Below, one piece after another: positions 2,815-60,052 of a stretch of DNA of 64,000 nucleotides. Origin of the DNA: a virus; the IMG/VR virus record IMGVR_UViG_3300029286_000012, one strand, 5' to 3'. The notes beneath the pieces were generated by a model. The model saw only the letters and a list, made by a program, of their open reading frames with translations, made no database searches and was not told the origin of the DNA. Numbering within the stretch: the stretch's first letter is position 1; every line of letters starts with the position of its first letter. The translations under genes and the position numbers were made by a program.

Positions 2815-3254
2815 TGTTATCAGATAATCTAAAAGTACTATTAGCTAGTACACAAAGCTTTGCTATCAAAAGCCAGAACTTTCATTGGAATGTTGAAGGC
2901 AGCAACTTTCCACAATATCACGACTTCTTTAATACATTGTACGAAGATGTAAATGCTACTATTGACCCTATTGCTGAATATATCAGAATATTAGGTTCGT
3001 ATACGCCCGGAAGTTTAACAAGATACGCAGAACTATCAATCATTGAAGACCAAATTAAAATCCCACGTGCTGAACTAATGTTTGCTGAATCATTACAAGA
3101 CTGTGAATTAATGCTTAAGTTAGTAACAGCAATGTTTGATGAGGCAGCTAGTGAGAATCAACACGGTATCGAAAACTATATGGCCGAACTACAAGATTTG
3201 TACGGCAAGAAAGCTTGGTTCATTCGTTCTATATTAAAACGAGAACGTGAGTAA
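2814..3254 (+). CDS. dps: Dps / ferritin-like DNA protection protein
   Basis: NFHWNVEGSNFPQYHDFF and IDPIAEYIRILG motifs; 146 aa; C-terminal KKAWFIRS. Confidence 0.9.
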   Translation: MLSDNLKVLLASTQSFAIKSQNFHWNVEGSNFPQYHDFFNTLYEDVNATIDPIAEYIRILGSYTPGSLTRYAELSIIEDQIKIPRAELMFAESLQDCELMLKLVTAMFDEAASENQHGIENYMAELQDLYGKKAWFIRSILKRERE

Positions 3255-4597
3255 TGCGAGCGAATGAGTTTTTAAACGAACTATTCCAGCAAGGTAAAAA
3301 GAACTGGGAATGGAAATTTCGCGGCGGTGAAGAAGCTAGAGCAAACTTTACAGTAGGCGATAGAACTTATCATTGGCAAGCGTTTTCCCGCAATGCCAAT
3401 CCTAAGAAATGGGAAGTTCAGTTTATGATGGGTAGAAAAGATACTGATCCACAGGAAATGGATATTTGGGGCACAACAGGTACAGGTAATTCAGCCGAAG
3501 TATTGTCTACCGCGGTTGATATTACCCGCGAGTTCTTACAAAAATATGGTCTTGATAAAGTAGAAGAAATAACATTCAATGCCAAAGAAGATAGTCGCAT
3601 TGGATTATATGCTAAGATGATTAAGCGTTTATTACCTGATTGGGACTTATATAGCAAAAAAGATCCACACGATGGAATGATTTTTACACTAACTGACCGT
3701 AGAGCATACGACAAGCCTGAAAATAAACTTAGTGAAAATGAACAACTGAATGAACGTGCAACTAGTGTAGTATTTCATTACACTAGTACCGGTGCCGCAT
3801 TAAAGATTCTACAATCAGGCAACTTTGAACTTGCAAGTGTAACAGGTAATCCAAGCGAAGAAGATTATGCACCAAAAGGTTATCCATACTTTTTAAGTTT
3901 AACACGCACACCAACCGGTGACTATCATAGATATGTTGGTACTGGTGGTGTAATGTTTAAAATGAACGGTGATTGGTTCAACAGTAGATACATTGTTAAG
4001 CCAATAGACTATTGGAATAGTGCTTGGTTAAAAAGTGATGGCACAAGAACACGTGAATCAGAAGATAGAGTATTCAGCAAAGAGCCAAGTATACCAATGA
4101 CACCTGTTACAGAGATACATATCTTACTAAAAGAACAAAATGAATATCGTAGCCCACAAACACGACAGCTAATGATAACAGCTAAAAAAAGAGATATACC
4201 AGTATATCTTTATACAGATGAAAAAGCTTGGAGATTGTTAGATACACGCAAGAGTGTTCAGCCAAGCCAAGCTAAAGATGTATTGAAGGGTCAACCAACT
4301 AGAGGTTCTACTCGCAAGCCAACAGACTTTGTTAAGCCTTGGATTGAGTTGATTGAAAAAGACAAAGAGGAATACTTAAGCGATAGAGCTAAGAGACAAC
4401 TAAAGAACCTGTTATGGTATCACGATACAACAGGCGATCATAACATAGGTGTTGATTTAAGTAACGCACGTAAGCCAGACGCAGGAGATAGAGCTAGTGC
4501 CGTGAAGTTGATTAAATATATGAACGACAATGGTTTTAAGAACACAATAGAGTTGAAAAACTATATATACGATAAATGGAATAAGTTAAAAAAATGA
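3254..4597 (+). CDS. Putative head-packaged two-domain protein; second domain ADP-ribosyltransferase-like
   Basis: N-terminus MRANEFLNE; internal EQLNE site followed by FHYTS...ILQSG...LSLTR...ESEDR. Confidence 0.45.
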   Translation: MRANEFLNELFQQGKKNWEWKFRGGEEARANFTVGDRTYHWQAFSRNANPKKWEVQFMMGRKDTDPQEMDIWGTTGTGNSAEVLSTAVDITREFLQKYGLDKVEEITFNAKEDSRIGLYAKMIKRLLPDWDLYSKKDPHDGMIFTLTDRRAYDKPENKLSENEQLNERATSVVFHYTSTGAALKILQSGNFELASVTGNPSEEDYAPKGYPYFLSLTRTPTGDYHRYVGTGGVMFKMNGDWFNSRYIVKPIDYWNSAWLKSDGTRTRESEDRVFSKEPSIPMTPVTEIHILLKEQNEYRSPQTRQLMITAKKRDIPVYLYTDEKAWRLLDTRKSVQPSQAKDVLKGQPTRGSTRKPTDFVKPWIELIEKDKEEYLSDRAKRQLKNLLWYHDTTGDHNIGVDLSNARKPDAGDRASAVKLIKYMNDNGFKNTIELKNYIYDKWNKLKK

Positions 4598-6936
4598 GAG
4601 CACTAGACTTTATAATATTAGAAACAGAAGTACTTGACGAAGTAGCGATGAATCCTACACGACTAAAGCAAGAAGCTGCCAAGACTGGTGCTCAGGCTGG
4701 TATGGAATTTGAGATGATTGTTCCAAACGTTAAACAAGAAGAAGGTGACGGGGATCCAGAAGCTGATTATGATAGTGATGAGAGTTCCGGTAGTATCCAA
4801 AACATACGCAACTTTTTTTATGACCGTAACTACAATGGTCTTAGAGAAGTAGAAAGTTTAGTTGATGAACTAACTCAATCTTATCTCGAATGGGCTGATG
4901 AAAGACGTAGCGAACAATGGGATAGTGAAGGTAAAGATTATCTACGTGAATATATTGAAAGTGAAGGCGAGTTTGATGAAGATGCCGCACTAGATGAGGC
5001 TTATGACCAGTTAGGCTTAACAGATGAACAAAAAGAAGCGGCAAACAAAGCCGGCGCAAAAACAACTAAACTAAAAGACAAAGAAAATAACGAAGATTGG
5101 AAACACTGGAAAGAAGCTACTGATATGGTAGAAGAAAAGCGTGACCAATTTGTTGAAGAAGAATGGGACAATCAAGAAAGATTGTATGACAATGCACGTG
5201 AAAAGTGGATGGATGAAACTGACTGGCCAGACGAAAGCGATTGGTTAGAAAGTGAAGGTCTTTATACAATGCAAGACGTTGAAAGTAACTATGATATTAG
5301 TTGGCCACATTGGTATTATCCCGATAACGGTGGTGAGTTAAGCGTTGATGATATTGGTGATGAGTTTAGCAGAATGATTGGTAAGCCAGTCAATACAAGC
5401 GAACGTTATCACGGTGCTCGCAGAGAAGCAGGTCACTATGTTGTTGAGCCTGATGGTAGCTTAGAGCCTGACGATTCCAGTGATGGTGGATTAGAGTTCG
5501 TATCTCCACCAATGCCCATAGATGAAATGATAAGTGACTTTAACAAAGTTGTTGCTTGGGCGAAAGATAAAGGTTGCTACACGAATGATAGCACTGGATT
5601 ACATATTAATGTAAGTGTACCTGACTTTAGTAGAGAAAAACTTGACTATGTTAAGTTAGCATTATTGTTAGGTGACGAATATATATTGAAAGAGTTTGAC
5701 CGTGAAGGTAACACTTTTTGTAAGAGTGCTTTGAAACAAGTTAAAGATAACATTAGACAAAATCCAGATAGTGCTAAAAAGTTGTTAGATGGAATGAAAG
5801 AAGGACTAAGTGATATCGCTAGCAAACTAGTTCATAGTGGTGCAACACACAAATACACAAGTATCAATACCAAAGACGGCTACATTGAGTTTCGTAGTCC
5901 CGGTGGTGATTGGTTAGATGCTGATATCCCTAAGATTGAAAACACGTTGTTACGATTTGTAGTAGCATTAGATGCCGCAGTTGATCCACAGAAATATAGA
6001 AAAGAATATCTAACAAAACTTTATAAGTTATTAGCACCAAGTAAAGATAGTACCGACACTATTCAATACTTTGCTAAGTATGCCGCAGGTGAGTTACCTA
6101 AGGCTGCATTGCGTAGCTTTGTTCAGCAAGCACAACTAGAACGCAAGTTGAAGAAAGATACTACCGGCGGCAAAAAATATTGGTGGAGTGTTCGTAGTCC
6201 TGGTGGTACTGCTAGTATAGAAGTTGTTGCCTTATCTAAAGAAGAAGCAAGAGAAAAAGCCATTGGTGGTTATCCAAATTGGGCTGACTATCGAAGTTCA
6301 TTGGTTGCCAAGCCATTGCGTCCGTATGAAAGGGACGACAGTAGTGAACCAAAGTATGAAATATTCAATTTGGATACTAACCGAAAGGTAGAAGATGCTG
6401 AAGGCATTACCAATGATAGAGAAGCATTGATTCGTCTAAATGATTACCTTGAACACGGACCACATAGACTACAACCATTCCAAGCAAGAGATATGTTTGG
6501 TATAAGACGTGTTGGTGATAGTGAGCCTATATTAGCACAACCTATTCGTGCTACAGGTGGTGAAACACAAGATTACAAACTATACAGAACAGCAGACCAA
6601 AGTATAGTTTATACATTCCAAGCTACATCAGTTGAAGAAGCAAGAGAAAAAGCTCAAGCTTGGTTGTTACAACAAGGTATTGATAGAAGAGGTTATGGTC
6701 TATCACGTATGGATCAACCAGCACCCGCACCAGGTAGCACAACTGATATACAACAACAACGTGCAGCCGGTGGCTTTACTGGTGCTTGGAAAGTGTTAGC
6801 TGATGGACAAGAAGTACATCGCTTTAGTGGAGTAGGTAACGTTCAACGTGATGCTAATCGTGTAGCTATTCAATGGCTAAGAGACAATGGGTACGATCAA
6901 GGTACAGACATTGAAGTATTACCTATAATGAGCTAA
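4594..6936 (+). CDS. Putative amidoligase (COOH-NH2 ligase family) domain protein, probably head-packaged
   Basis: GMEFEM, EPDGSL, GLEFVSPP, STGLHINVS, KYTSIN and IEFRSPG motifs; large acidic insert; N-terminus MRALDFIILE. Confidence 0.75.
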   Translation: MRALDFIILETEVLDEVAMNPTRLKQEAAKTGAQAGMEFEMIVPNVKQEEGDGDPEADYDSDESSGSIQNIRNFFYDRNYNGLREVESLVDELTQSYLEWADERRSEQWDSEGKDYLREYIESEGEFDEDAALDEAYDQLGLTDEQKEAANKAGAKTTKLKDKENNEDWKHWKEATDMVEEKRDQFVEEEWDNQERLYDNAREKWMDETDWPDESDWLESEGLYTMQDVESNYDISWPHWYYPDNGGELSVDDIGDEFSRMIGKPVNTSERYHGARREAGHYVVEPDGSLEPDDSSDGGLEFVSPPMPIDEMISDFNKVVAWAKDKGCYTNDSTGLHINVSVPDFSREKLDYVKLALLLGDEYILKEFDREGNTFCKSALKQVKDNIRQNPDSAKKLLDGMKEGLSDIASKLVHSGATHKYTSINTKDGYIEFRSPGGDWLDADIPKIENTLLRFVVALDAAVDPQKYRKEYLTKLYKLLAPSKDSTDTIQYFAKYAAGELPKAALRSFVQQAQLERKLKKDTTGGKKYWWSVRSPGGTASIEVVALSKEEAREKAIGGYPNWADYRSSLVAKPLRPYERDDSSEPKYEIFNLDTNRKVEDAEGITNDREALIRLNDYLEHGPHRLQPFQARDMFGIRRVGDSEPILAQPIRATGGETQDYKLYRTADQSIVYTFQATSVEEAREKAQAWLLQQGIDRRGYGLSRMDQPAPAPGSTTDIQQQRAAGGFTGAWKVLADGQEVHRFSGVGNVQRDANRVAIQWLRDNGYDQGTDIEVLPIMS

Positions 6937-6937
6937 T

Positions 6938-7483
6938 ATGAGAGCAACAGAGTTTATTAATAAGGAAATACCTTTTGCAGACGGGTATTTAGTTGTGAGC
7001 AAACACTTTATTAATGATAGAAGTGATGGTTCTGAACGTAACATTCCCATAGAAAAAGTCCTTCGAGTATTACATAAGTTAGAAACTAGACGTGGACATG
7101 AACTAATGAAAATGCCATATATTACTTTTGTAGTTAAAACTACTGATTTAGGAGTAGCTATAGCCAAGCAAAAAGATAATTATGGTGAAAATGCATATGT
7201 TGTATTAACCGCACATCCTACATTGCAAGTATCCTCAGATGAGGATGTATTTTATTTAGAAGAACAAGAAAATCCTAAAGTAGATTTAACACCCAACTAT
7301 CCTAACTATCAAGTGTTAGTAGGTGAGTTCTTGGGTGTAAAGAAGAACAGATATATCTTTCAAATAGTTGCCGCAGAACTAAAGCCTGGCCAAGGTGCTA
7401 CTGAGAAAATAGTTAAATCAATAACAAACAAGACACCGTTTGGTATTGATATTGAAAGAGTAAAGAATCGTAAGGTAATATGA
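6938..7483 (+). CDS. Hypothetical protein with capsid-targeting-like N-terminus
   Basis: Starts MRATEFINKE; 181 aa. Confidence 0.55.
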   Translation: MRATEFINKEIPFADGYLVVSKHFINDRSDGSERNIPIEKVLRVLHKLETRRGHELMKMPYITFVVKTTDLGVAIAKQKDNYGENAYVVLTAHPTLQVSSDEDVFYLEEQENPKVDLTPNYPNYQVLVGEFLGVKKNRYIFQIVAAELKPGQGATEKIVKSITNKTPFGIDIERVKNRKVI

Positions 7484-7926
7484 TAAAAATGAAAAAAATA
7501 ATAATATTAGTAATTCTAACATTAACTAGTGTTGCATTTGCACAAAAGCAAAAGCCAATGAACATCTATGATTTTCCTATCACTAGGATTATTGATGGGG
7601 ATACTGTTGCATTTCAAGCAACATTCTTACCTCCACCTTTAAAACAAGAACTAAGTATTCGTGTATTTGGTGTTGATACACCTGAAAAAGGTCATAGAGC
7701 AATGTGCCCAAGCGAAGACCAACGTGGTCAAGCCGCTACTGCATTTACAAAGAATGCTATCAGTAAAGCACAAAAACGTCAAGTAGCTATCGCTGATTGG
7801 GATAAATACGGTGGTCGTGTATTAGGTGATATATTACTTGATGGACAAAGTTTAAGAATGATGCTAATACAAAACGGATTTGCAAGAGAATACTACGGAG
7901 AAGCCAAACAAAGTTGGTGTAATTAA
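7480..7926 (+). CDS. Thermonuclease (SNase family) with signal peptide
   Basis: IIDGDT, IRVFGVDTPE, DKYGGRVLG, NGFAREY; hydrophobic N-terminus ending AFA. Confidence 0.9.
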   Translation: MIKMKKIIILVILTLTSVAFAQKQKPMNIYDFPITRIIDGDTVAFQATFLPPPLKQELSIRVFGVDTPEKGHRAMCPSEDQRGQAATAFTKNAISKAQKRQVAIADWDKYGGRVLGDILLDGQSLRMMLIQNGFAREYYGEAKQSWCN

Positions 7927-8261: not shown

Positions 8262-8834
8262 ATGCGGTTTAGTCAGATTGTATTAGAGTCGCCTGCCAAT
8301 GAGCTAGCAAAGAAACTTCCTAGCTTAGAAAAGCACGACTATAATACAATCGACAGGCTAATGAGAAGAATCGCTAGTAAACATAAAATTACTGGTAAAG
8401 CATTACATGATTTATTTGTCAAAAAATATCATCGTAACCCTGACAGTTGGATTAAAAATAAACTAGATGAGGCTGGTGAAAATGAACTACAACGAGAAGT
8501 TGATATGTTTGTTCAGTGGGCCTCCAAAATATTACATTTAAAATCTACTCCATCTATTGAATTAAGTATGGATACCGAAGAGGCTCAAACTAATCATCAT
8601 ACCGGTGGTCATCAAATGGGTACTGATAATATTTGGGTCTATGCTAAAAATCGTAACCTTGTAGATATACTACGTACAGTATTCCATGAATTAGTACATG
8701 TCCGTCAAGGTGAACTAAATATGATTGAACCCGGGGATAGTTATCCCGGTAGCCCAATTGAAGCAATGGCAGATATGCTTGCAGGAAAATATATCAAAAT
8801 TTATGGAGAAAAAAATAACCATATCTTTCAATAA
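8262..8834 (+). CDS. HExxH zinc metallopeptidase-like protein
   Basis: TVFHELVHVRQ...PIEAMA; N-terminus MRFSQIVLE. Confidence 0.65.
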   Translation: MRFSQIVLESPANELAKKLPSLEKHDYNTIDRLMRRIASKHKITGKALHDLFVKKYHRNPDSWIKNKLDEAGENELQREVDMFVQWASKILHLKSTPSIELSMDTEEAQTNHHTGGHQMGTDNIWVYAKNRNLVDILRTVFHELVHVRQGELNMIEPGDSYPGSPIEAMADMLAGKYIKIYGEKNNHIFQ

Positions 8835-26013: not shown

Positions 26014-27405
26014 ATGAGAACATACGATAAACGAATTGGCTTCTTAGTAAGCTCACAAACATTGATACCACATGGTGGTATAGGACAATTTACAAAAAGC
26101 TTTTGTGAATTGATGGATAGTCATAATATTAAAGTTGATATCATTACTGATAAACAACCGCAGAATACAGATTTCATCAAGTCACTTAATGCAAAAATTA
26201 TCGCACCGACTAATGTATTAAAATACACAGACCATAGTGCTATCTTTATGTATGGTGATACATTCTGCTATGAGCGTATGGCCAACTTCCGTAATAGTAT
26301 TGTTGAAGCACTAGAAGAAAATATGTATGATGCACTCGTATGTAATACATATGAAACTGTGCAATTAGCTTCAACTATGGGATTAGAAGATATTATTCAA
26401 ATTATTGCGTACACTCACTTAGAAAGTCAAATCTTTACTAATACTTCAAATCCATTTCTATTAAGTACGAATGAAATGATGCGTAAACAATTAGAGATGA
26501 ATGCATTGTTTATAGGGACACAAAGTAAATACAATCAATTGCAATTTCAAAATGCATATGAATTACCTATCCCATTGCCAGAAAAAGATTTATTAAAAGA
26601 ACACCATAAGCCACGTGAAGGTGTACTGTTTATTGGTAGATGGGAAGAGGGTAAGAATCCCGAACTCTATTTAGATTTAATTGAGCAAACACGATTGCCA
26701 GCAAGAGTAATGACAAGTGCGACTGGTGCTAAAAAGTTTGAAGCACGATTAAAAGAAATTGGTGTACCATATGAAATTCGTATAGGTATTATTGGTCAAG
26801 AGAAGGTTGATTTCATAACTAGTTGTCGTGTTGCATTTAATCCTAGTTTAGTTGAGAGTTACGGGATTGCATTTTTAGAACAAATGACACAAATGCCAAC
26901 TGTTGCGTTAGATAATATACGATGGACTAACAATTTTAATAGTCAATATTTTTTCACTTGTACAAAACAAACAATGGTAACTGTAGTGGAAGCGTTGTAT
27001 CATTCATATGACACTGCACAAAGTTGGTATGATGAAGGCTCATTAAAACATACTCAAACTATGGATAGTTTAGTATTTCATAAATGGAATGATTGTTTTA
27101 ATCAATTTGCTTGTAAACAATCAAGGAACAGTACTGCAGGTATTTGCAAGACTCTCACTTCTCCAAATTTAACTGTTAGATATGCAGATTTTATTGCAAC
27201 CCTAAACAGAAGAATAATCTGCATTGATGATGCCCGTAGTGTGTTTACAAACAAATACAAATATCGTGTAATTTATACTGATGACGATACATATTTGACT
27301 CTTGATCCTGCATTTGTACCCGCACCAATTGTAATATTGCAACCAACTATACAATCAAATCTTACCGGTAACCCAATGGAAGATTTGTTTGAAATTGAGA
27401 AATAA
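26014..27405 (+). CDS. GT4-family (GT-B) glycosyltransferase
   Basis: PHGGIGQF, LFIGRWEEGKNP, NPSLVESYGIAFLE (ExxGxxxxE). Confidence 0.85.
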   Translation: MRTYDKRIGFLVSSQTLIPHGGIGQFTKSFCELMDSHNIKVDIITDKQPQNTDFIKSLNAKIIAPTNVLKYTDHSAIFMYGDTFCYERMANFRNSIVEALEENMYDALVCNTYETVQLASTMGLEDIIQIIAYTHLESQIFTNTSNPFLLSTNEMMRKQLEMNALFIGTQSKYNQLQFQNAYELPIPLPEKDLLKEHHKPREGVLFIGRWEEGKNPELYLDLIEQTRLPARVMTSATGAKKFEARLKEIGVPYEIRIGIIGQEKVDFITSCRVAFNPSLVESYGIAFLEQMTQMPTVALDNIRWTNNFNSQYFFTCTKQTMVTVVEALYHSYDTAQSWYDEGSLKHTQTMDSLVFHKWNDCFNQFACKQSRNSTAGICKTLTSPNLTVRYADFIATLNRRIICIDDARSVFTNKYKYRVIYTDDDTYLTLDPAFVPAPIVILQPTIQSNLTGNPMEDLFEIEK

Positions 27406-27923
27406 TGATGAAACAAAAAGTTATAGATTTTATTAATAGTAACAAGTTTAAAAATAAGTTTGGAATACCCTTCGTCATTTTTGACGGAGAGCTAAAAAAA
27501 TACAAAACCGATAAATTACCAAATACCTGTGGTATATATATTACTCATAGTGACAAGTTAGGAATAATATATATAGGAATGACTGAATCAAGTGCTAATA
27601 GTAGATTTGAAAGGCACATGGGTAGGGCAGACAAAGGTAAAGATTATGACAAAAATAAACCTCATAAAGTTTGGGATTATTTTCATAGCTGGTGTAAAAC
27701 AGAAAGGTATAGTTTAGAACAAGATAGCGATTATATTTTTGTGTCTTTCCAAAACAAAATTACGAAAAAACAATTAGAATTCTTGGAAAGCGGATTAATC
27801 TTTGAATTTCAAACTTTACTGAATGATGATTGTTTTGAATGGTTTGGTTTTCAACAGTTAGAAAATCTTAAAGGAACTTTGTCCACGTCAAGAGATACAA
27901 CAGATTTATTTGAAGGATTATGA
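27405..27923 (+). CDS. GIY-YIG endonuclease (probable free-standing homing endonuclease)
   Basis: CGIYITH...IYIGMT...SRFERH...LESGLI...LLN. Confidence 0.75.
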   Translation: MMKQKVIDFINSNKFKNKFGIPFVIFDGELKKYKTDKLPNTCGIYITHSDKLGIIYIGMTESSANSRFERHMGRADKGKDYDKNKPHKVWDYFHSWCKTERYSLEQDSDYIFVSFQNKITKKQLEFLESGLIFEFQTLLNDDCFEWFGFQQLENLKGTLSTSRDTTDLFEGL

Positions 27924-28744: not shown

Positions 28745-29422
28745 TTATGCTAAGTGTGTCATTAGCGTATTCATTTGTTTAACTCCACCTTTTGACAACT
28801 GAAATCCTTTTTGACCTGCACGATTGATTCGTTGGTCATAACTAGGATGACTGCTATTAGGCAGTTTAGTTATACTATTGTAAAAGTCGTAATCAGATTG
28901 TTTTTGATGCAAGAACTTAAACATCTCAACTTTGTTGTAGCCCAAAGCCCTACATAACCTAATAGCAAAGTCGTCAGCATCCATTTCTTCCCGACGTGCT
29001 TGCCCGAGATCAGGCTGAAAACCGTGTCCTAGGGCAATGTGTCCCAGTTCATGTGCTATAGCAAATGCCAGTGTAGCATCAGGAGCATCCCAAAACACAG
29101 TTAGGTCAAGACTGACAGTGCGATTGTCAGCATTTCCTTGAACCCATTGGTCATTCGACATAACACGAACCTTTGTCCCTGTCAGTCTTTGTGCCCATTC
29201 TGGACCGGCGGCTCGCATTAATTTACCTAACATACCATTACTACGTTGTTGCAGTTGTTCGAATCTAGGCATCCAAACGTCAGGTTGTTTTTTTATAGTT
29301 TCTAAATCTTGATATTCACCTGCTTTAGCTAAACCAGTAGCGCCCAATGCGGCGGCACCCGCTACACCTTTAAGTAAGTCTCTACGGCTAATAGCTTCGC
29401 TGATGAATTCGTTTGCTCTCAC
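28745..29422 (-). CDS. M48-family zinc metallopeptidase with a capsid-targeting-like leader followed by a twin-arginine signal (GTG start)
   Basis: (M)RANEFISE-AISRRDLLKG..AKA; AHELGH, EEMDAD, SHPS..RI. Confidence 0.8.
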   Translation of the reverse strand: MRANEFISEAISRRDLLKGVAGAAALGATGLAKAGEYQDLETIKKQPDVWMPRFEQLQQRSNGMLGKLMRAAGPEWAQRLTGTKVRVMSNDQWVQGNADNRTVSLDLTVFWDAPDATLAFAIAHELGHIALGHGFQPDLGQARREEMDADDFAIRLCRALGYNKVEMFKFLHQKQSDYDFYNSITKLPNSSHPSYDQRINRAGQKGFQLSKGGVKQMNTLMTHLA

Positions 29423-29423: not shown

Positions 29424-29978
29424 TTATTTCTTAAGGTTTCTAATTTTCTGTTCAGCAATCATTACCAATTTTTCCATCTGTTGTACACTTTCACAGTTCC
29501 ATCTGCGTAGTGCTTTGTTGATTGGGCTATCCGGATCTCGTTTAGTCTTAGCACTTGCGTGAGCCTTCTTCATTCCACTCATTCTAGCACAGAATGATTT
29601 ACGGCGTTTAGCGGCTTTACTACCCTTCTTTAGTTTTGAAGGCTTAGTAGTAACAGCAGTCTTTAGTTTAGATCCTGGATTCTCTCTGCGATATGCTTTG
29701 ACAGCCTTACTGCTCATGCCATCAGTTTTGTCTTTTTTGTTGACCTTTTGCCAATCCTCATCTAAATCTTCTTCTTGTATATCTTTTGGCTTCTTACCAG
29801 CCTTTTTCATACTAATAGCAATAGCGGCTTGTTGTGCTGGATTAGCGGCTTCATCAATGTTCTTTGGATAGCCGGGCTTTGGTTTGCATTTGCAAGTTCC
29901 GGGTTTGCAAGTGCAACCTCTCATTCCACATTGTGGACAAATCTTGCTTGATTCTGTTAGTACTTCAGTAATTTTCAT
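29424..29978 (-). CDS. Basic modular putative head-internal protein
   Basis: MKITEVLTE start; IDE and LDE sites; Cys-rich module; KRRKSFCARM..ALRRWNC. Confidence 0.6.
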   Translation of the reverse strand: MKITEVLTESSKICPQCGMRGCTCKPGTCKCKPKPGYPKNIDEAANPAQQAAIAISMKKAGKKPKDIQEEDLDEDWQKVNKKDKTDGMSSKAVKAYRRENPGSKLKTAVTTKPSKLKKGSKAAKRRKSFCARMSGMKKAHASAKTKRDPDSPINKALRRWNCESVQQMEKLVMIAEQKIRNLKK

Positions 29979-31570: not shown

Positions 31571-33379
31571 ATGAAGCGTAATAAAACATCAGTAGCGTTA
31601 GCAGTTGATGAAATTTCAATTCCCGATATCGAACCATTACAACAGGAATATCTAGTAGACAATATTCTTGATGCAATCACTAGGTTTTTAAAATCAGCCG
31701 TAAAAAAAGCTATTGTAGTGCAGGCTCCTACTGGTAGTGGTAAAAGTTTCACTATCACTAACTACACCTCTATTCTTATTGCACAAAACTTTAAGAAAAT
31801 TAAAAATATTTTCTTTGCGGCGCCTTCACAGGAATGTGTTGACGAGCCACTTGAAAGTATGATGAAGTATGATGGCACCTACATTGGCAACAAATTAGTT
31901 AAAGTCTATGACAGTAAACAATTGAAATATTCATTGGTCAATAATATTGACTTACCGGGTGACATTCGTTATTTCTTTATGACTACACAATATATGTATG
32001 GTCTGTATGAGAACTATGACCCAGCGAATCCCGATGACTTTGATTTGATGTTACCCGATCTTATCTTTAATGATGAGGCACATCGTGGTTTAGGCGTACC
32101 TGACAAGTCAACTACTAAAGATGACCAGGGCATTACTAATAATAACTGGGAACCTAAATGGTTTGACATGCAGACTGCAATGATGGATAGTGGTACTATC
32201 GTCATTCATTTGACTGCAACACCTACCCAATCTCAACGTATGAAAACATTGGTTGGTGCTGACAAGTACATACAGTTGCCTACAATGCCTAAATTCAAAG
32301 AAGCAAATGCATTCACTAAATTTGAATATCATGGAAATCGTGAAGATTTGAATGAGACATTAGATGCCGCCTACAAGACATTTGCTTGGCAAGTTAATGA
32401 GATTCGCAATCAACAAGTTTTGATTCCACAAGACACATGGGATTCTGTTTCTGATAAGATACCAAAAATGATGCCCGGCATCATTATTAGTTTAGGACGC
32501 AATAACGCAGTTAATGGTATCCCAATTGGTGCAGTAATGAAAGATGTTAAAGAGTTCGTTAAACGAATCAATGCGGTGTTGTTTGTTTCTACATCTAAAG
32601 AAAAGCATTTTGATGGTAAGGCTATCAAGCGCATGAGTGACGGTATTAAATTGGCTAATAGCCCTGCTTACCTGAACAGACCGCTTGTGATGGTTGTTGT
32701 TGATTCAGGTAAGATGGGTATCAACATTCCTCGATTGATTACGGCAGTAGTTTGTAAAGTCCCCGCACAACAAAAGATTCACAACAGCTATACACAGTTT
32801 GTTGCACGTACTTGTCGTTTGCCTTTCTTCCGTGACCATGAATTGGGAATTGAATTCATTCGCAAGATGAAAGTGTCCGATGAAGTGAAATCACTAGTGT
32901 GTTCATACTATTCGTTACTGTCTACATCGTTTGCCATTCTTCCGCAAGATACTGAATTGATGCAGTTAGTAGAAGAATTCTACACAGAAGATACGTTTGA
33001 AATGATCGATGGTATCGATTACATTCTGAAGGGAGTGTTCGGAGGTAAGGATCCAAAAAAGTTGCTTTCGGGTTTGCGACTTGCGTTTGATAACGGCCAA
33101 CTTAATCAATTGTTTCGCAAGGACCATTGTGAAGCCTGTAAAGGTGTTTGTTTTGAGCAAGCAATTAAGGGTTACATTGAACAATACGGAGACGATACTA
33201 GTTCATTAGGAGACTTCATTGAAGATTGGAAAACTACATTGCAAGTAGATCATATTGATGGTAATCGTTACAATAACGACACATCAAATCATGCAACAGT
33301 TTGTCCAAATGTACATATGTTGAAAACTCAGAGACAAAAAGACTTTTTGAACAAATATACTTTTGGCAATAAAAAATAA
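31571..33379 (+). CDS. SF2 (DEAH / type III Res-like) helicase with C-terminal HNH nuclease domain
   Basis: APTGSGKS, NDEAH, LTATP, GKMGINIP, QFVARTCR; CEAC...QVDHIDGNRYNN..NHATVCPNVH. Confidence 0.8.
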   Translation: MKRNKTSVALAVDEISIPDIEPLQQEYLVDNILDAITRFLKSAVKKAIVVQAPTGSGKSFTITNYTSILIAQNFKKIKNIFFAAPSQECVDEPLESMMKYDGTYIGNKLVKVYDSKQLKYSLVNNIDLPGDIRYFFMTTQYMYGLYENYDPANPDDFDLMLPDLIFNDEAHRGLGVPDKSTTKDDQGITNNNWEPKWFDMQTAMMDSGTIVIHLTATPTQSQRMKTLVGADKYIQLPTMPKFKEANAFTKFEYHGNREDLNETLDAAYKTFAWQVNEIRNQQVLIPQDTWDSVSDKIPKMMPGIIISLGRNNAVNGIPIGAVMKDVKEFVKRINAVLFVSTSKEKHFDGKAIKRMSDGIKLANSPAYLNRPLVMVVVDSGKMGINIPRLITAVVCKVPAQQKIHNSYTQFVARTCRLPFFRDHELGIEFIRKMKVSDEVKSLVCSYYSLLSTSFAILPQDTELMQLVEEFYTEDTFEMIDGIDYILKGVFGGKDPKKLLSGLRLAFDNGQLNQLFRKDHCEACKGVCFEQAIKGYIEQYGDDTSSLGDFIEDWKTTLQVDHIDGNRYNNDTSNHATVCPNVHMLKTQRQKDFLNKYTFGNKK

Positions 33380-52850: not shown

Positions 52851-53516
52851 ATGAAACTCAAGCTTTTAGCAATCTCACTAGTATTAGTGCTAACAGGTTG
52901 CTCAACAACAAAAAATGCAAGTGTAGAGTCTGCACCTATCACTGCAATCAATACACAAAAACTAACCTCTAGTTTTAAACGACAGGGAATTAAGATTGAA
53001 TGGTCTTGTGCATGGGGTACAGGATTATTCGGTGTAAGTGATGCATTGTGTGTCAAGGGTGAGATTCGAGCCATTGAAGTAACTGGTTACGCAAATAGTT
53101 TTGGCAATAGTGAAGCATTACGTGAACGTGCATTCATTGCCGCTGAGATGGATGCTAAGGCACGATTGATTCGTTTTATGAACGAGGGTGTCGGCTCTAA
53201 TAACTTTGCTAATACTGTTACAAAGAACGTAGAGAAAGCACAAGACCGAATTAAGAATCGTATCAAATCAGACGAAGCAGTTGAAATGAGCGACCAAGAT
53301 GCAAGCAAGGATACAAACTTTGCTATACGTGAAAACAACAACGAGGTTGTTCGTACACTAAGTGAAAGCATTCGCAATAATGCTGAAGGTAAACTACGTG
53401 GTGCATTACTCAAAGATGCCGAAATAGTAGATAGACAAACTGTTAAAGCAGTTATTCGCTGGGACCATGATACTGAACGTGCCGCAATGTATATGCGTAA
53501 ACGCTTTGGTCAATAA
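52851..53516 (+). CDS. Lipoprotein (LPP20-like)
   Basis: Lipobox VLTGC; AEMDAKARL; promoter TTGACG-N17-TATAAT at 52792-52820. Confidence 0.65.
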   Translation: MKLKLLAISLVLVLTGCSTTKNASVESAPITAINTQKLTSSFKRQGIKIEWSCAWGTGLFGVSDALCVKGEIRAIEVTGYANSFGNSEALRERAFIAAEMDAKARLIRFMNEGVGSNNFANTVTKNVEKAQDRIKNRIKSDEAVEMSDQDASKDTNFAIRENNNEVVRTLSESIRNNAEGKLRGALLKDAEIVDRQTVKAVIRWDHDTERAAMYMRKRFGQ

Positions 53517-54484
53517 TGAAAAAACTATTATCAGGCTTGTTGTGTCTGGTAGCTCCCTTTGCAAATGCACTACAGATTAGTGGTCAGGGTGCTACGTTTG
53601 AAGAAGCTAAACTAAATGCTTTTAGAACAGCGATTGAGGTTGTTGCTGGTTCAGTCGTAACCACAGAACGTGAATCTATCAACTATAAACTAGTTAAAGA
53701 TGAAATTTTAGTTTATAGTGCCGGTTATGTAACTGACTACAAAATCATTAATACATTTAAATCGGGGAATCAGGTTCAGGTTATTGTTGATGTTCAAGTA
53801 TCTAGTAGCAAATTATCTGATAGAATACTAGGTTTAGGTAAAGAAGTTAAAAACTTTGAAGCTGATAAACACGGTAATCAATATCAAACTTATCTATATG
53901 GTAAAAGTAATGGTGATAAGTTATTAATGCAAGTGTTAAATGATTATCCTGCAAAGGCATACACTATAACACAGGGTGTGCACCAATTTAAAGTTGATGC
54001 ATATCGTAATGGTATCATCGAAATTCCATTAGAAGTAAAATGGAATTATAACTTTATTGAATCATTTAATGAGGCATTAAAGATATTACAAGATGGTAGT
54101 AATGGATTACTTCAACATAGTCCGGGTAATGTTGTTGTTATGGCAAAGGATCCTAAAGATTGGGTCATAGGTACAAAGAATCATTATAAGTTTAATGATA
54201 TGATTACCGTATCTAATATTAGAACTACATTACAACAGAGAAAACCTAATATACTATTGACCATCAATAACTTTGAAAACAAAACAGTATTTCGTCAATG
54301 CTATGTACCCGATTCGATTGCAGGAAAGAAGTCCGCGTTTTATAATGTAGGGCCTACACTAGCATTGTATGGTAATCAAACAGAGAAAAATAAAATAGAA
54401 CTAAGTTTAACCAATATGCAAGATGCAATAAAGCAAATTCAAAATATTGAGTTGACCATAGTCACTGATGACAAATGTCCATAA
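53516..54484 (+). CDS. Secreted protein (LPP20-like N-terminal domain)
   Basis: Signal peptide ending ANA; G.GATFEEAKLNAFRTAIE. Confidence 0.55.
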   Translation: MKKLLSGLLCLVAPFANALQISGQGATFEEAKLNAFRTAIEVVAGSVVTTERESINYKLVKDEILVYSAGYVTDYKIINTFKSGNQVQVIVDVQVSSSKLSDRILGLGKEVKNFEADKHGNQYQTYLYGKSNGDKLLMQVLNDYPAKAYTITQGVHQFKVDAYRNGIIEIPLEVKWNYNFIESFNEALKILQDGSNGLLQHSPGNVVVMAKDPKDWVIGTKNHYKFNDMITVSNIRTTLQQRKPNILLTINNFENKTVFRQCYVPDSIAGKKSAFYNVGPTLALYGNQTEKNKIELSLTNMQDAIKQIQNIELTIVTDDKCP

Positions 54485-54520: not shown

Positions 54521-55723
54521 ATGTCAACAGAAAATAAACTAAGCCATTGCTCTTTTTGCGGTAATCATAAAGATAACGTAAAAAAATTAATTATAAGTGA
54601 AGAGGTAGCTATTTGTAGTACTTGTGTAGAATTATGCAACACATTAATGGTTGATGAGGAAAGTAAAAGTGATTTTGTATCGGAAAATATGGTATCATAT
54701 GATCCTGAATCCATTAAAGACTTTCTAGACCAGCATGTTATTGGACAACATAATGCCAAAAAAGTATTGAGTGTTGCTATTGCTAATCATTATAAACGTA
54801 TTAATCGTCCACCAAAAGATTTAGAAATATCTAAGGGTAACGTATTACTAGTAGGCCCAACTGGTTCAGGTAAAACATTATTAGCTAAAACAGTAGCAAA
54901 ATACTTAGAAGTTCCCTTTATTGTTGCAGATGCTACAAGTATCACAGAAGCAGGTTATGTGGGTGATGATGTTGAATCAATGATTAGTATGCTATTGAAT
55001 GCCGCCGGCGGTGATGTTAAATTGGCCGAGCGTGGTATCGTATTCATTGACGAAATTGATAAGATTGCACGTAAGGGTGAAAGTGCCAATATTACACGTG
55101 ATGTGTCAGGCGAGGGTGTTCAACAAGCATTATTGAAAATGGTTGAAGGAACAGTATGTCGCATTCCATCTGGTGGTGGTCGTAAGCATCCAGGCGGTGA
55201 TATGATAGAAATCAATACAAAAAATATCTTATTCATTGCGGGCGGGGCCTTTGTTGGATTAAAAGATATTATTAACAGTAGAGAGAATGGTACTAGTATT
55301 GGGTTTGGTGCTCAGATTAAAGACCATCGCAAAGACGGGGATTTGAGTAATGTTAGTCCTGATGATTTGGTTAAGTTTGGTATGATTCCTGAATTTATTG
55401 GACGTTTTACTACTACAGTAAATGTTGAAGATTTGACAAAAGAGGAACTAATTAAAGTATTGACCGGTATTAAAAACAACTATATTGACCAATACAAATA
55501 TTTGCTTAGTTTAGATGACATTGATTTAAATTTTACAGAAGATGCACTAGACCAATTAGCAGAAAATACAATGTCACTTAAGACAGGAGCACGTGGATTG
55601 CATACTGAGATTGAACGTGTATTGATGCCGCATATGTTCTACACTAAAAAGTATCGGGATAATCAGGTATTAAACATAAATATAGATAGAAAACAAATTT
55701 TGGAGCCAAAAGTTATAGTATGA
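54521..55723 (+). CDS. clpX: ATP-dependent Clp protease ATP-binding subunit
   Basis: CSFCG zinc finger, GPTGSGKT, EAGYVGDDVE, DEIDK, RDVSGEGVQQALLK, RKHP, IGF loop, TGARGL. Confidence 0.97.
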   Translation: MSTENKLSHCSFCGNHKDNVKKLIISEEVAICSTCVELCNTLMVDEESKSDFVSENMVSYDPESIKDFLDQHVIGQHNAKKVLSVAIANHYKRINRPPKDLEISKGNVLLVGPTGSGKTLLAKTVAKYLEVPFIVADATSITEAGYVGDDVESMISMLLNAAGGDVKLAERGIVFIDEIDKIARKGESANITRDVSGEGVQQALLKMVEGTVCRIPSGGGRKHPGGDMIEINTKNILFIAGGAFVGLKDIINSRENGTSIGFGAQIKDHRKDGDLSNVSPDDLVKFGMIPEFIGRFTTTVNVEDLTKEELIKVLTGIKNNYIDQYKYLLSLDDIDLNFTEDALDQLAENTMSLKTGARGLHTEIERVLMPHMFYTKKYRDNQVLNINIDRKQILEPKVIV

Positions 55724-55935
55724 GAGGTAGAAAGGTTTTAGTTCAGGATGGAAACGTAGACAAAGCATTGCGAAAATTTAAAAAAGTTATCGCAGACTAT
55801 GGTACCTTACAAGAGGTACGTGACCGTCAAGAATATGTAAAACCCACTATCAAACGCAAACTAGCAAAGAGTCAGGCTAAACGTAGATGGCAAAAGTATT
55901 TGAGAGACCAGAGTCTCCCGAAGAAAGAATTTTAA
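55720..55935 (+). CDS. rpsU: 30S ribosomal protein bS21
   Basis: NVDKALRKFKK, EVRDRQEYVKPT..RK. Confidence 0.9.
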   Translation: MRGRKVLVQDGNVDKALRKFKKVIADYGTLQEVRDRQEYVKPTIKRKLAKSQAKRRWQKYLRDQSLPKKEF

Positions 55936-55975
55936 GTTCCAAAATAGTAGAATTTTTTGCATATTTTTATTATAA

Positions 55976-56040
55976 TAAATATGTATTCAGATGCCGATGG
56001 TCGGGTCTGAAATATGTCATCTTGCTTATAGGAGAAAAAA
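55976..56040 (+). promoter_or_regulatory. ROSE-like RNA thermometer leader of hsp20
   Basis: TAAATA 55976; hairpin 55986-56011; TCTTGCT 56020-26 pairs with SD AGGAGA 56030-35 with a bulged G. Confidence 0.6.
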
Positions 56041-56490
56041 ATGACAAATCAATTAACCCTTCGTTCCATAGATATTCCATCTATTCATAAGTTCTCAGTC
56101 GGTTTTGACCGTATGTTTGACGAACTAACTCGCAATCAATCGCAACAAACAAACTATCCCCCATATAACATCGTTCAGATTAATGAAGATGAATATATGA
56201 TTAGTCTCGCTGTTGCAGGATTCGGTCCTGATAATCTATCAGTAACTAAAGAAAAAAACTTTTTAATTATTGAAGGTAATCATGCGTTGAATAGTATTGA
56301 AACTGATACAGAACCCACATATCTACACAAAGGTATTAGTGAACGTAATTTCCGTCGTGAGTTCCGTCTTGCGGATCACGTAGAAATTGAGAACGCACAT
56401 TTAGAATTGGGTATCTTAAGTATTCACTTAAAACGTGAAGTTCCTGAAGAACAAAAGCCCAAGTCTATTGCTATTACTTACACTAAATAA
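56041..56490 (+). CDS. Small heat shock protein (Hsp20/IbpA family)
   Basis: GFDRMF, NYPPYNI, AVAGF, YLHKGISERNFRREF, GILSIHL. Confidence 0.95.
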   Translation: MTNQLTLRSIDIPSIHKFSVGFDRMFDELTRNQSQQTNYPPYNIVQINEDEYMISLAVAGFGPDNLSVTKEKNFLIIEGNHALNSIETDTEPTYLHKGISERNFRREFRLADHVEIENAHLELGILSIHLKREVPEEQKPKSIAITYTK

Positions 56491-56510
56491 TATAATAGAT
56501 GTTCGTTAAC

Positions 56511-56540
56511 AGTGTGCGGCAATGTCGCACACTATTTTAT
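56511..56540 (+). terminator. Stable hairpin (terminator or 5' leader hairpin of clpS)
   Basis: AGTGTGCGGC-aat-GTCGCACACT followed by ATTTT. Confidence 0.5.
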
Positions 56541-56552
56541 AAAGTATAAAAA

Positions 56553-56858
56553 ATGGCTAAAACAGAAACTAAACCTAAAATCAAACCCAACATCAATTTG
56601 GCTGAACCACCGTTGTATAAAATCATTTATCTCAACGATGAAGTAACCAGTATGAATTTTGTAGTTAACAGTTTGATTGAATATTTCAATTACAACCAGG
56701 ATACTGCATCATCACTAACAGTGAGTATTCACGATCAGGGTAGTGCGGTAGTTGCTGTATTGCCTTATGAAATTGCTGAACAAAAAGGCATTGAAGTGAC
56801 CCTTGATGCACGTAGTCAAGGATTTCCACTACAGATTAAAGTTGAAGCAGAAGTTTAA
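56553..56858 (+). CDS. clpS: Clp protease adaptor ClpS
   Basis: PPLYKIIYLNDEVTSMNFVV, IHDQGSAVV, YEIAEQK, GFPL. Confidence 0.9.
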   Translation: MAKTETKPKIKPNINLAEPPLYKIIYLNDEVTSMNFVVNSLIEYFNYNQDTASSLTVSIHDQGSAVVAVLPYEIAEQKGIEVTLDARSQGFPLQIKVEAEV

Positions 56859-57556: not shown

Positions 57557-57810
57557 TAAGATTGCGTTGTAGGCTTAGCTTTTGGTGCTCTTGGGGCTTT
57601 TGGCTTAGCAGGTGCCTTAGCTTTTGGTGCTGCCGGAGCTTTTGGTTTAGCCGGGGCTTTAGCTTTTACAGGTGCAACTGCTTCTACAACCAACGGAATT
57701 GGTGTAGTAGCTGCCGGTTCTGGTACTTTGTACGGTGCAGTTACGTTGGCCGGTTCTGCCTCGACTGGTTTAGCTGAAAAGCCAAATAAACGCTTGATAA
57801 AGTCTATCAT
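57556..57810 (-). CDS. Ala/Lys/Pro-rich small protein
   Basis: KAKAPAKPKAP repeats; AGGAG RBS and TAAATA upstream. Confidence 0.6.
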   Translation of the reverse strand: MIDFIKRLFGFSAKPVEAEPANVTAPYKVPEPAATTPIPLVVEAVAPVKAKAPAKPKAPAAPKAKAPAKPKAPRAPKAKPTTQS

Positions 57811-57908
57811 TTCTATCTCCTAAACATATATTTACTCGGAACACTAACCCGTATATTTTTTCCGTAATATGAGTATTATTATGGGTAATATAGTATCATA
57901 AATACATT

Positions 57909-58400: not shown

Positions 58401-58419
58401 TATTGCATAAATACACATT

Positions 58420-59982: not shown

Positions 59983-60052
59983 TTACCAAAAACATTTGAC
60001 AACAACATAAACACTTGTTATAATAGTAGAAATATTTTTATAAAGGAAGTTT

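What the first reader, a model, noticed from the sequence alone, without database searches (positions are those of the whole stretch)
29321..29422. Two-address protein: capsid-targeting leader masking a Tat signal on an M48 peptidase
Seen: from the GTG at 29422 (minus strand) the protein reads MRANEFISE|AISRRDLLKGVAGAAALGATGLAKA|GEY..., then an M48 domain (HELGH, ExxAD, SHP). Known: S-R-R-x-(F/L)-L-K plus an h-region and AxA is a twin-arginine signal, and Tat exports folded proteins post-translationally. Inference: the protein is packaged, trimmed at E, injected, then exported by host Tat to the periplasm with no new synthesis. It could cleave receptors or envelope sensors (superinfection exclusion). 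I do not know of this route having been described.
Basis: partly seen in the sequence, partly recalled or inferred. Interest (0 to 1): 0.72.

Follow-up and report, generated by a model that had tools for sequence, protein, structure and literature searches.

The report
Phage protease with head-leader plus Tat signal
A giant uncultured T4-related phage encodes a small zinc protease whose start carries a T4-like "pack into the head, then cut" tag followed directly by a bacterial Tat export signal. Relatives keep the same cut site and export signal buried inside long multi-enzyme proteins, which suggests (untested) that proteins injected with the DNA are sent on to the host periplasm.

Summary
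ORF 29422..28745 (minus strand, GTG start, 225 aa) reads: 9-residue leader MRANEFISE, a complete Tat signal (SRRDLLK, Ala/Gly-rich h-region, AKA), then an M48 core with HELGH, ExxAD and SHPxxxxR invariant in 45 homologues.

- **The leader is a separate module.** It heads at least 6 unrelated ORFs in the window, against 0 in shuffles, and matches the T4 IPII/IPIII capsid-targeting sequence (EFIAE|A). It also persists in homologues that lack the Tat signal.
- **The Tat signal is often internal.** In 33 of 129 homologues the Tat-M48 module lies at residue 28-620 of polyproteins of up to 1942 aa.
- **A cut-site motif precedes it.** 74 of 78 RR motifs have [ILV]xE at most 4 residues upstream, against a 4.7% baseline.
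- **The head machinery is present in relatives.** A 98%-complete relative has the polyprotein, a gp21-type prohead protease and a Gp23 capsid protein. The homologue of the fused amidoligase partner was found in Atu_ph07 virions by mass spectrometry.

Packaging, cleavage, injection and Tat export are all inferred, not shown. A 9-residue leader need not mask a Tat signal, and internal Tat signals can work uncut (FecR). The scan has noted the same layout before on other DNA (19 notes, at least 16 genomes). I found no paper describing it.

The parts
29396..29422 (-). Leader, residues 1-9 (MRANEFISE). It resembles the T4 capsid-targeting sequence and ends in I-S-E, a gp21-type cleavage motif.
   Evidence: T4 IPII/IPIII start MKTYQEFIAE|A. 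The same type of leader heads other window ORFs.
29321..29395 (-). Tat signal peptide, residues 10-34: SRRDLLK motif (RR at 29381-29386), Ala/Gly-rich h-region, AKA signal-peptidase site.
   Evidence: TIGR01409 scores 20.0 bits against a 16.7 cut-off. Pfam TAT_signal scores 20.5 against 22.7. Conserved in 80 homologues. Mean Kyte-Doolittle hydropathy of the h-region is 1.42, against 2.25-2.87 for the Sec/lipoprotein signals in the window. pLDDT is below 50 for residues 1-30.
28745..29320 (-). Mature minimal M48-type zinc metallopeptidase, residues 35-225 plus stop. HELGH at 29039-29053, ExxAD at 28973-28987, SHPxxxxR at 28829-28852.
   Evidence: Pfam M48 E 1.8e-8. Catalytic residues are invariant in 45 sequences. 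PDB profile hits: 3c37 M48 (E 1.2e-4) and BepA (E 7e-4). AF2 model pLDDT 80.7. Best Foldseek hit is BepA 6sar (E 2e-3).
29424..29978 (-). Upstream gene of the same two-gene minus-strand unit. A basic DUF6321 protein (pI 10.0) with its own leader MKITEVLTE; its stop lies 1 nt before the M48 GTG.
   Evidence: The DUF6321 domain occurs in 386 cyanophage and pelagiphage records.
3254..4597 (+). Unrelated 447-aa ORF with the same leader (MRANEFLNE). All five shared RANEF codons differ synonymously from those of the target.
4594..6936 (+). Amidoligase_2 protein, 780 aa, with leader MRALDFIILE. In relatives it is fused downstream of the Tat-M48 module in one polyprotein. Its Atu_ph07 homologue (CDS196) is a virion protein.
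6938..7483 (+). 181-aa ORF with leader MRATEFINKE. It is syntenic with the gene that follows the polyprotein in relatives.
8262..8834 (+). 190-aa ORF with leader MRFSQIVLE.

Best explanation
The gene encodes an active, minimal M48-family zinc peptidase with two successive N-terminal addresses.

Step 1 (inferred by analogy with T4 internal proteins): the 9-residue leader takes the protein into the assembling prohead. In relatives, membership of a leader-headed polyprotein does the same.

Step 2 (inferred): the gp21-type prohead protease cuts after Glu-9, as it cuts after the [ILV]xE junctions in the polyprotein forms. The new N-terminus begins A-I-S-R-R, a Tat signal with a minimal n-region.

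Step 3 (inferred): the protein is ejected with the DNA into the next host's cytoplasm and refolds with zinc.

Step 4 (inferred): host TatABC exports it after translation, and signal peptidase I cuts at AKA|GEY.

Step 5 (speculative): in the periplasm it cleaves envelope proteins early in infection, as the periplasmic M48 proteases BepA, YcaL and LoiP act on outer-membrane proteins. This would happen with no new protein synthesis.

Shown here: the gene, the three modules, their conservation and modularity, the cut-site motif before RR, and the presence of the protease and head genes in relatives. All trafficking steps are inference.
For: **The leader is modular.**
- It heads at least 6 unrelated window ORFs, against 0 in shuffles, plus two more just upstream of the window.
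- The five RANEF codons differ synonymously between paralogues, so selection acts on the peptide.
- It is kept in M48 homologues that lack the Tat signal.

**It resembles the T4 capsid-targeting sequence.**
- T4 IPII/IPIII start MKTYQEFIAE|A, read from NC_000866.
- The first 10 residues suffice for packaging, and residues 8 and 10 govern processing (PMC9026906).
- gp21-family proteases cut after Glu (PMC5694885).

**A cut-site motif precedes the Tat signal.**
- 74 of 78 Tat motifs in the family have [ILV]xE at most 4 residues before RR, against a 4.7% baseline, across 50 distinct upstream 8-mers.
- 33 Tat signals are internal, at residue 28-620 of polyproteins of 243-1942 aa.
- The junction in G001 has no start codon.
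- The module switched between stand-alone and embedded at least 6-7 times while keeping the motif.

**Only Tat signals sit behind these sites.**
- All 6 Tat-like motifs found in the window, G001 and G008 sit behind such a site.
- Sec and lipoprotein signals in the window are plain N-termini.

**Relatives have the T4-type head machinery.**
- G008 is 98% complete, with polB 61% identical and a syntenic cluster. It has the M48 polyprotein, Peptidase_S77 and Gp23.
- G011 also has M48 plus Peptidase_S77.
- RaK2, Vibrio phage 2.275.O and Atu_ph07 all have Peptidase_S77.
- The capsid proteins keep LxE just before the conserved mature start.

**Link to virions.** Atu_ph07 CDS196, a homologue of the amidoligase module that is fused to Tat-M48 elsewhere, was detected in virions with 14 peptides and 30% coverage.

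**The peptidase looks active.** The catalytic set is invariant. The nearest solved relatives are the 3c37 M48 peptidase and the periplasmic protease BepA.
Against: - No virion, cleavage, injection or export data exist for this protein or any homologue. No cultured phage carries it.
- The window's own genome is not held, so its prohead protease was not seen. The closest 111-kb relative fragment has none.
- A 9-residue leader does not obviously block Tat recognition, so the protein could be exported in the producing cell.
- Internal uncleaved Tat signals work in FecR-type substrates, so polyprotein forms do not strictly need cleavage.
- 49 of 129 homologues lack the Tat signal, so the peptidase is not bound to a periplasmic role.
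- The MRAxEF leader was found only in the one tested complete genome that also has M48, and not in 4 other jumbo genomes or 3 cultured relatives that have the gp21-type protease. This fits lineage specificity, but it also fits dependence on M48.
- Pfam TAT_signal is just below its cut-off.
Confidence: 0.5

Rival explanations
1. Ordinary Tat export in the producing cell. The protein is made during infection and is exported straight away by host Tat, either with the leader as part of the n-region or as an internal FecR-like signal in the polyprotein forms. It acts on the envelope of the infected cell (superinfection exclusion, lysis timing) and is never packaged.
For: The Tat signal is real by model score and conservation. 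An 11-residue n-region is within the normal range (my knowledge of TorA). Internal Tat signals behind a cytoplasmic domain are a recognised class. The gene lies among replication and modification genes, not head genes.
Against: It does not explain why the same leader heads unrelated non-exported proteins. It does not explain why [ILV]xE precedes RR in 95% of cases. It does not explain why modules downstream of M48 in the polyproteins, such as the amidoligase, would be dragged across the membrane. The amidoligase homologue is a virion protein. T4 internal-protein genes also lie outside the head cluster.
Confidence: 0.25
2. The M48 domain is the processing protease of the leader and junction sites. 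It would free the modules of the 'polyvalent' cargo proteins in the head or after injection, as proposed for metallopeptidase domains of polyvalent proteins.
For: Iyer et al. 2017 propose autoproteolytic metallopeptidase domains in phage polyvalent proteins (PMC5512222). MRAxEF leaders and M48 co-occur in G008 and are both absent from 4 other jumbo genomes. 49 homologues have no Tat signal.
Against: The junction motif (cut after Glu, Ile/Leu/Val at P3) is the known gp21-family specificity. T4 has the same kind of leader and cuts it with gp21. A conserved cleavable Tat signal on 80 homologues points to a periplasmic workplace, away from cytoplasmic or capsid substrates. The nearest solved relatives are an M48-family peptidase (3c37) and the periplasmic protease BepA.
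Confidence: 0.1
3. The RR/hydrophobic segment is not an export signal. It would be a membrane-insertion or docking element of an ejected protein, for example one that anchors cargo at the inner membrane or at the Tat translocon during DNA entry.
For: The h-region is only weakly hydrophobic. Two of the four polyprotein versions tested score below the TIGR01409 cut-off: P0119 at 16.5 bits and P0133 at 12.4 bits.
Against: The full tripartite signal is conserved, including the AxA site directly before the conserved mature start G-E/Q/D-Y/F. The window protein and several internal copies pass the curated Tat models.
Confidence: 0.07

Closest known systems
T4 internal proteins IPI, IPII, IPIII and Alt (capsid-targeting sequence, gp21 processing, injection with the DNA)
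   Same: A short N-terminal leader shared by otherwise unrelated proteins. It ends in (I/L)xE followed by Ala. Compare EFISE|A here with EFIAE|A in T4. Genes lie outside the head cluster. The lineage has a gp21-type protease.
   Different: The T4 proteins act in the cytoplasm and carry no second address. Here the residues exposed by the cut form a Tat signal. The leader is one residue shorter. In relatives the same motif also serves as an internal linker of polyproteins.
Periplasmic and outer-membrane M48 proteases of Gram-negative bacteria (BepA/YfgC, LoiP/YggG, YcaL; PDB 6sar, 6ait, 3c37)
   Same: HExxH, ExxAD and (S/T)HPxxxxR motifs. These are the best sequence and fold matches. The predicted destination is the periplasm.
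   Different: About 190 residues with no TPR domain and no lipobox. The 35-45-residue insert between the zinc-ligand helices is missing. Export would be by Tat rather than Sec (BepA and LoiP using Sec/Lol is my knowledge). It is phage-encoded.
Tat substrates: class I (cleaved N-terminal signal) and class V (internal uncleaved signal behind a cytoplasmic domain, FecR)
   Same: S/T-R-R-x-F/L-L-K, a weakly hydrophobic h-region and an AxA site. The internal position in the polyprotein forms resembles class V.
   Different: None of the five classes in the 2026 review involves unmasking by a protease or delivery by a virion. Here a conserved Glu cut-site lies 1-4 residues before RR.
Polyvalent proteins of phages and conjugative elements (Iyer et al. 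2017)
   Same: Long multi-domain cargo proteins with a zincin-type metallopeptidase among enzymatic domains, predicted to travel with the DNA.
   Different: That paper does not mention signal peptides, Tat or amidoligase (0 occurrences). Here the peptidase carries an export signal and the junctions fit the prohead protease, not self-cleavage.
Ejection proteins of phiKZ/SPN3US-type giant phages processed by the prohead protease
   Same: Many head-internal proteins are cut after Glu. Diverged paralogues share conserved N-termini.
   Different: The motif there is (A/S/G)xE with long propeptides. No export signals are reported.

Membership tests
Peptidase family M48 | Match to the curated family model above its cut-off | tested here: met
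   PF01435 scores 34.9 bits against a 20.3 cut-off, E 1.8e-8.
Peptidase family M48 | Zinc site HExxH plus a third ligand Glu in ExxAD, and the C-terminal (S/T)HPxxxxR motif | tested here: met
   H124, E125, H128, E146, A149, D150, H192, P193 and R198 are invariant in 45 sequences. They align to the same motifs of 3c37 and BepA.
Peptidase family M48 | M48/gluzincin fold | tested here: inconclusive
   AF2 model pLDDT 80.7. Best Foldseek hits are BepA (E 2e-3, TM 0.38), selecase and 3c37. None reaches E 1e-3.
Peptidase family M48 | Proteolytic activity | not testable with these tools
   Needs an enzyme assay.
Tat (twin-arginine) signal peptide | Consensus (S/T)RRxFLK at the boundary of the n- and h-regions | tested here: met
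   S-R-R-D-L-L-K at residues 12-18. RR is invariant in 80 homologues.
Tat (twin-arginine) signal peptide | Weakly hydrophobic h-region and an AxA signal-peptidase site, with a basic residue in the c-region | tested here: met
   A 13-residue Ala/Gly-rich stretch with mean hydropathy 1.42, against 2.25-2.87 for the window's Sec signals. A-K-A lies before the conserved mature start.
Tat (twin-arginine) signal peptide | Curated model score | tested here: met
   TIGR01409 scores 20.0 against 16.7. Pfam TAT_signal is just below its cut-off at 20.5 against 22.7.
Tat (twin-arginine) signal peptide | TatABC-dependent export | not testable with these tools
   Needs tat+ versus tatC- fractionation or reporter fusions.
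T4-type capsid-targeting sequence / internal head protein | A leader of about 10 residues shared by otherwise unrelated proteins of the same phage | tested here: met
   At least 6 ORFs in the window and 2 just upstream. Shuffles give 0.
T4-type capsid-targeting sequence / internal head protein | The leader ends in the prohead-protease motif (I/L)xE | tested here: met
   I-S-E|A in the window protein. [ILV]xE precedes 74 of 78 RR motifs.
T4-type capsid-targeting sequence / internal head protein | The genome encodes a gp21-type prohead protease (Peptidase_S77) | tested here: inconclusive
   The window's genome is not held. The protease is present in relatives G008 and G011 that carry the M48 family and in 3 cultured relatives. 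It is absent from the 111-kb fragment G001.
T4-type capsid-targeting sequence / internal head protein | The protein is present in virions with the leader removed and is injected | not testable with these tools
   Only indirect evidence: the homologue of the fused amidoligase module is in Atu_ph07 virions.
Polyvalent proteins (Iyer 2017) | Several unrelated effector or enzyme domains in one polypeptide of a phage or plasmid | tested here: not met
   The window protein is a single-domain gene. Relatives P0116-P0135 meet this feature, with a weak sub-threshold NTP_transf_2 (nucleotidyltransferase-type) N-terminal region, M48 and Amidoligase_2 in one chain.

The most novel reading that the evidence does not exclude
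A sixth kind of Tat substrate and a new infection route. Phage head-cargo proteins would have a Tat signal that is created or exposed by the prohead protease inside the capsid. After ejection into the next cell, host Tat would then send ready-made enzymes (here an M48 protease) to the periplasm before any phage gene is expressed. The address code would be modular and would move between stand-alone genes and polyproteins.
Probability: 0.45. Interest if true: 0.85.

Novelty: new variant of a known kind. Interest (0 to 1): 0.7.

Why it matters
If true, injected virion proteins are not confined to the cytoplasm. A phage could remodel the host envelope within seconds of DNA entry, using the only export pathway that accepts finished, folded, metal-loaded proteins. 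That would explain why Tat signals, and not Sec signals, sit behind head-protease sites.

It would add a protease-unmasked, virion-delivered class to the five known classes of Tat substrates. It would also give a ready two-tag system for delivering proteins to the periplasm with T4-type particles.

The idea is directly testable with existing T4 capsid-targeting tools and tat mutants.

Tried and rejected
**Searches that found nothing.**
- tblastn of the M48 protein against 50,697 cultured-phage records gave no match.
- Megablast of the locus gave only a 150-bp hit.
- An exact 42-mer search in IMG/VR gave none.

**Could not reach the window's own head genes.**
- The window's whole genome is not held.
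- The metagenome records behind my loci are not searchable.
- Walking 17 kb upstream of the window found clamp loader, PhoH, DnaJ and ClpB genes but no head genes.
- Peptidase_S77 is absent from the 111-kb and 44-kb relative fragments G001 and G002.

**Patterns not found elsewhere.**
- The MRxxEF leader pattern is absent from RaK2, Vibrio phage 2.275.O and Atu_ph07.
- It is also absent from the jumbo genomes G003-G006.
- The M48 module is absent from G003-G007.

**Uninformative.**
- The T4 late-promoter box TATAAATA occurs 3 times against 9.9 expected.
- Foldseek against the PDB gave only weak matches.

**Readings rejected.**
- The leader as merely the n-region of the Tat signal: rejected because it occurs on non-Tat homologues and on unrelated proteins.
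- The leader as an RNA-level element: rejected because of the synonymous codon differences.

**Literature.** Searches for Tat combined with ejected, jumbo or virion phage proteins found nothing relevant.

Full report
**1. What is there.**
On the minus strand, an ORF runs from the GTG at 29422 to the stop at 28745 and encodes 225 aa. The GTG lies one base after the TAA of the upstream gene 29978..29424, so the two form a coupled pair that points against the flanking plus-strand genes.

- leader MRANEFISE at 29396-29422;
- the segment from A10 to A34 at 29321-29395, holding S-R-R-D-L-L-K, a 13-residue Ala/Gly-rich stretch and A-K-A.

The mature part starts G-E-Y-Q.

Model scores:
- Pfam Peptidase_M48: E 1.8e-8, above its cut-off.
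- Pfam TAT_signal: 20.5 bits, just under its 22.7 cut-off.
- NCBIfam TIGR01409: 20.0 bits against a 16.7 cut-off, whether or not the leader is removed.

**2. The organism.**
The window is part of an uncultured giant myovirus.
- Its family-B DNA polymerase is 43-49% identical to those of Sinorhizobium phage Phosso, Atu_ph07, Vibrio phage 2.275.O and the RaK2/K64-1 group.
- Identical genes occur on ENA, JGI and Logan metagenome contigs of up to 86 kb.
- No whole genome is held.

Two IMG/VR relatives were used:
- **G001** is 111 kb, with polB 93% identical, and is syntenic with the window.
- **G008** is 340 kb and 98% complete, with polB 61% identical and the same gene cluster in front of polB.

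**3. The peptidase.**
In an alignment of 45 diverse homologues the following are invariant: H124, E125 and H128 (HELGH), H133, E146/A149/D150 (ExxAD), and H192/P193/R198.
- A profile search of the PDB finds the Geobacter M48 peptidase 3c37 (E 1.2e-4) and E. coli BepA (E 7e-4). These align over the same three motifs, but the phage proteins lack a 35-45-residue insert.
- The AF2 model is confident for residues 31-213 and disordered for residues 1-30.
- Its best, though weak, structural matches are BepA, the minimal gluzincin selecase, and 3c37.

It is therefore a minimal and probably active M48-type enzyme.

**4. The leader is a module of its own.**
- In the window the same kind of N-terminus heads ORFs 3254, 4594 (Amidoligase_2), 6938, 8262, the target, and its DUF6321 neighbour. 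The strict pattern gives 4 hits against 0.0 in shuffles.
- Two more such ORFs lie just upstream of the window.
- Between ORF 3254 and the target, all five codons of R-A-N-E-F differ at synonymous sites, so the peptide is what is conserved.
- T4 IPII and IPIII, read from NC_000866, begin MKTYQEFIAE followed by Ala. The window protein has EFISE followed by Ala.
- In T4 the first 10 residues suffice for packaging, and residues 8 and 10 govern cleavage (PMC9026906).
- gp21-family proteases cut after Glu (PMC5694885).

**5. The family shows the two addresses are separable.**
136 homologues were collected: 107 of similar length and 29 longer. Of these, 129 were informative:

| Layout | Number |
|---|---|
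| Leader plus Tat signal at the N-terminus | 47 |
| Tat signal internal, RR at residue 28-620 | 33 |
| Leader present but no RR motif | 49 |

- In the 33 internal cases the host proteins are 243-1942 aa long.
- In the 49 without RR, the leader is followed by a Pro/Ala/Thr linker or runs directly into the mature start.
- In G001 the closest relative of the window protein (95% identical in the core) is the C-terminal part of a 508-aa ORF. Its junction reads N-E-L-A-E then A-I-S-R-R, with no ATG, GTG or TTG nearby.
- In the long polyproteins the Tat-M48 module is followed, after H-L-A-E, by a linker that resembles the leader and then by Amidoligase_2. This is the same protein as window ORF 4594..6936.
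- The window's separate leader-headed genes are therefore modules of one chain elsewhere.
- A FastTree of the mature cores needs at least 6-7 switches between stand-alone and embedded forms, and only about 3 between Tat and no Tat.

**6. The cut-site motif.**
- Across all collected proteins, 74 of 78 Tat-like motifs have [ILV]xE ending at most 4 residues before RR. The baseline for random positions in the same proteins is 4.7%. The upstream 8-mers are diverse, with 50 distinct.
- The cut would leave 1-3 residues before RR. That is as short as some genuine E. coli Tat signals, from my knowledge of CueO and MdoD.
- In the near-complete genome G008 the only two Tat-like motifs are both internal and both behind xE.
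- G001 has three, all behind xE, on three different cargo modules. One of them passes the Pfam cut-off at 23.5 bits.
- By contrast, the window's Sec and lipoprotein signals (ORFs 7480, 52851, 53516) are plain N-termini with far more hydrophobic cores.

**7. Link to the head.**
- Peptidase_S77 (T4 gp21 type) is present in RaK2, Vibrio phage 2.275.O and Atu_ph07.
- In G008 it lies beside a scaffold-like gene and the Gp23 capsid gene. It is also present in G011, which carries a Tat-less M48.
- The capsid proteins of these four phages keep L-x-E just before the conserved mature start.
- Atu_ph07 CDS196 is 32% identical to the window amidoligase (E 1e-29) and lies two genes from the portal gene. 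It was detected in purified virions with 14 peptides and 30% coverage (supplement of PMC6102473).
- The operon partner, the DUF6321 protein, is very basic (pI 10.0), like the T4 internal proteins.

**8. What this does not show.**
- Nothing demonstrates packaging, cleavage, injection or export of this protein.
- The window's own prohead protease was not seen.
- A 9-residue leader gives an n-region of ordinary length, so the stand-alone protein might be exported in the producing cell.
- Internal uncleaved Tat signals work in FecR-type substrates (PMC13673990), so 'masking' is not established even for the polyproteins.
- The MRAxEF leader was found only where M48 is also present. This keeps alive the rival that the M48 domain is itself the processing enzyme, as suggested in general for polyvalent proteins (PMC5512222).
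- I rate that rival low for three reasons. The junction motif is the gp21 specificity. T4 uses the same leader and cuts it with gp21. A conserved cleavable export signal places the enzyme away from such substrates.

**9. Comparison and novelty.**
The parts are known: a T4-type capsid-targeting leader, a gp21-type cut site, a class I Tat signal and a BepA-like M48 core. Their serial arrangement, and its recurrence inside polyproteins, is not in the five Tat substrate classes of the 2026 review. It is not in the polyvalent-protein paper, and none of the literature searches found it.

Within this scan, the same layout was noted before on other DNA: 19 notes in at least 16 genomes, one of them on an M48 homologue. 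Those notes were leads only. The tests reported here were run independently.

**10. Verdict.**
- Observation: confirmed.
- Interpretation: partly supported.
- Best reading: a head-packaged, protease-trimmed, Tat-re-exported periplasmic effector protease, at about 0.5.
- Main rival: ordinary Tat export in the producing cell, at about 0.25.

Noticed in passing
window 54521-60640; L039 4010-7104: The phage encodes its own proteostasis set: ClpX (54521-55723), Hsp20 (56041-56490), the N-end-rule adaptor ClpS (56553-56858) and ClpP (60053-60640), plus DnaJ and ClpB about 12-15 kb upstream of the window. Cutting after the leader Glu would create Leu or Ile N-termini on some cargo (for example ORF 3254, LNE followed by L), which ClpS-type adaptors read as degrons.
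   Followed up: partly
G001 (L034 7004-11365; L035 14126-16012 minus strand): Two further internal Tat signals sit on other cargo. One is at residue about 922 of a 1445-aa polyprotein, between A-V-D-E and V-V-A-E sites. The other is at residue about 113 of a 628-aa protein that ends in a GP88 domain, between two G-V-N-E sites. The cargo modules are about 170-190 aa and have no family.
   Followed up: partly
G008 66378-70778 (L170 6378-10778): A second polyprotein of 1466 aa has a LysM peptidoglycan-binding domain at residues 416-471 and an internal Tat signal at residue 1113. This is another hint of envelope-directed cargo.
   Followed up: partly
window 28745-28760 and polyproteins P0116-P0135: The M48 module always ends T-H-L-A. 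In the polyproteins the next residue is Glu, giving L-A-E, a second cut-site motif that would release the module at its C-terminus.
   Followed up: partly
window 29880-29951: Right after its leader, the DUF6321 protein has a Cys-rich stretch (C-P-Q-C-G ... C-T-C-K-P-G-T-C-K-C) and then internal I-D-E and L-D-E sites. Its basic DUF6321 tail is shared with 386 cyanophage and pelagiphage records. In P-TIM68 the tail ends a 428-aa protein next to the large terminase.
   Followed up: partly
window 7480-7926, 52851-53516, 53516-54484: Three proteins have ordinary Sec or lipoprotein signals and no leader: a staphylococcal-nuclease homologue, a lipobox protein (L-T-G-C) and a 322-aa secreted protein.
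   Followed up: partly
window 2814-3254: A ferritin/Dps-like gene sits inside the cluster of leader-headed cargo genes. It is conserved at the same place in G001, G008 and L037.
   Followed up: no
window 27405-27923 and 31571-33379: A GIY-YIG-like ORF lies between the glycosyltransferase and epimerase genes. A helicase-like protein has a C-terminal HNH domain.
   Followed up: no
L037 1-1029: The relative that carries the 1574-aa polyprotein P0119 also encodes CsgG and CsgF homologues (curli secretion channel parts) about 9 kb upstream.
   Followed up: no
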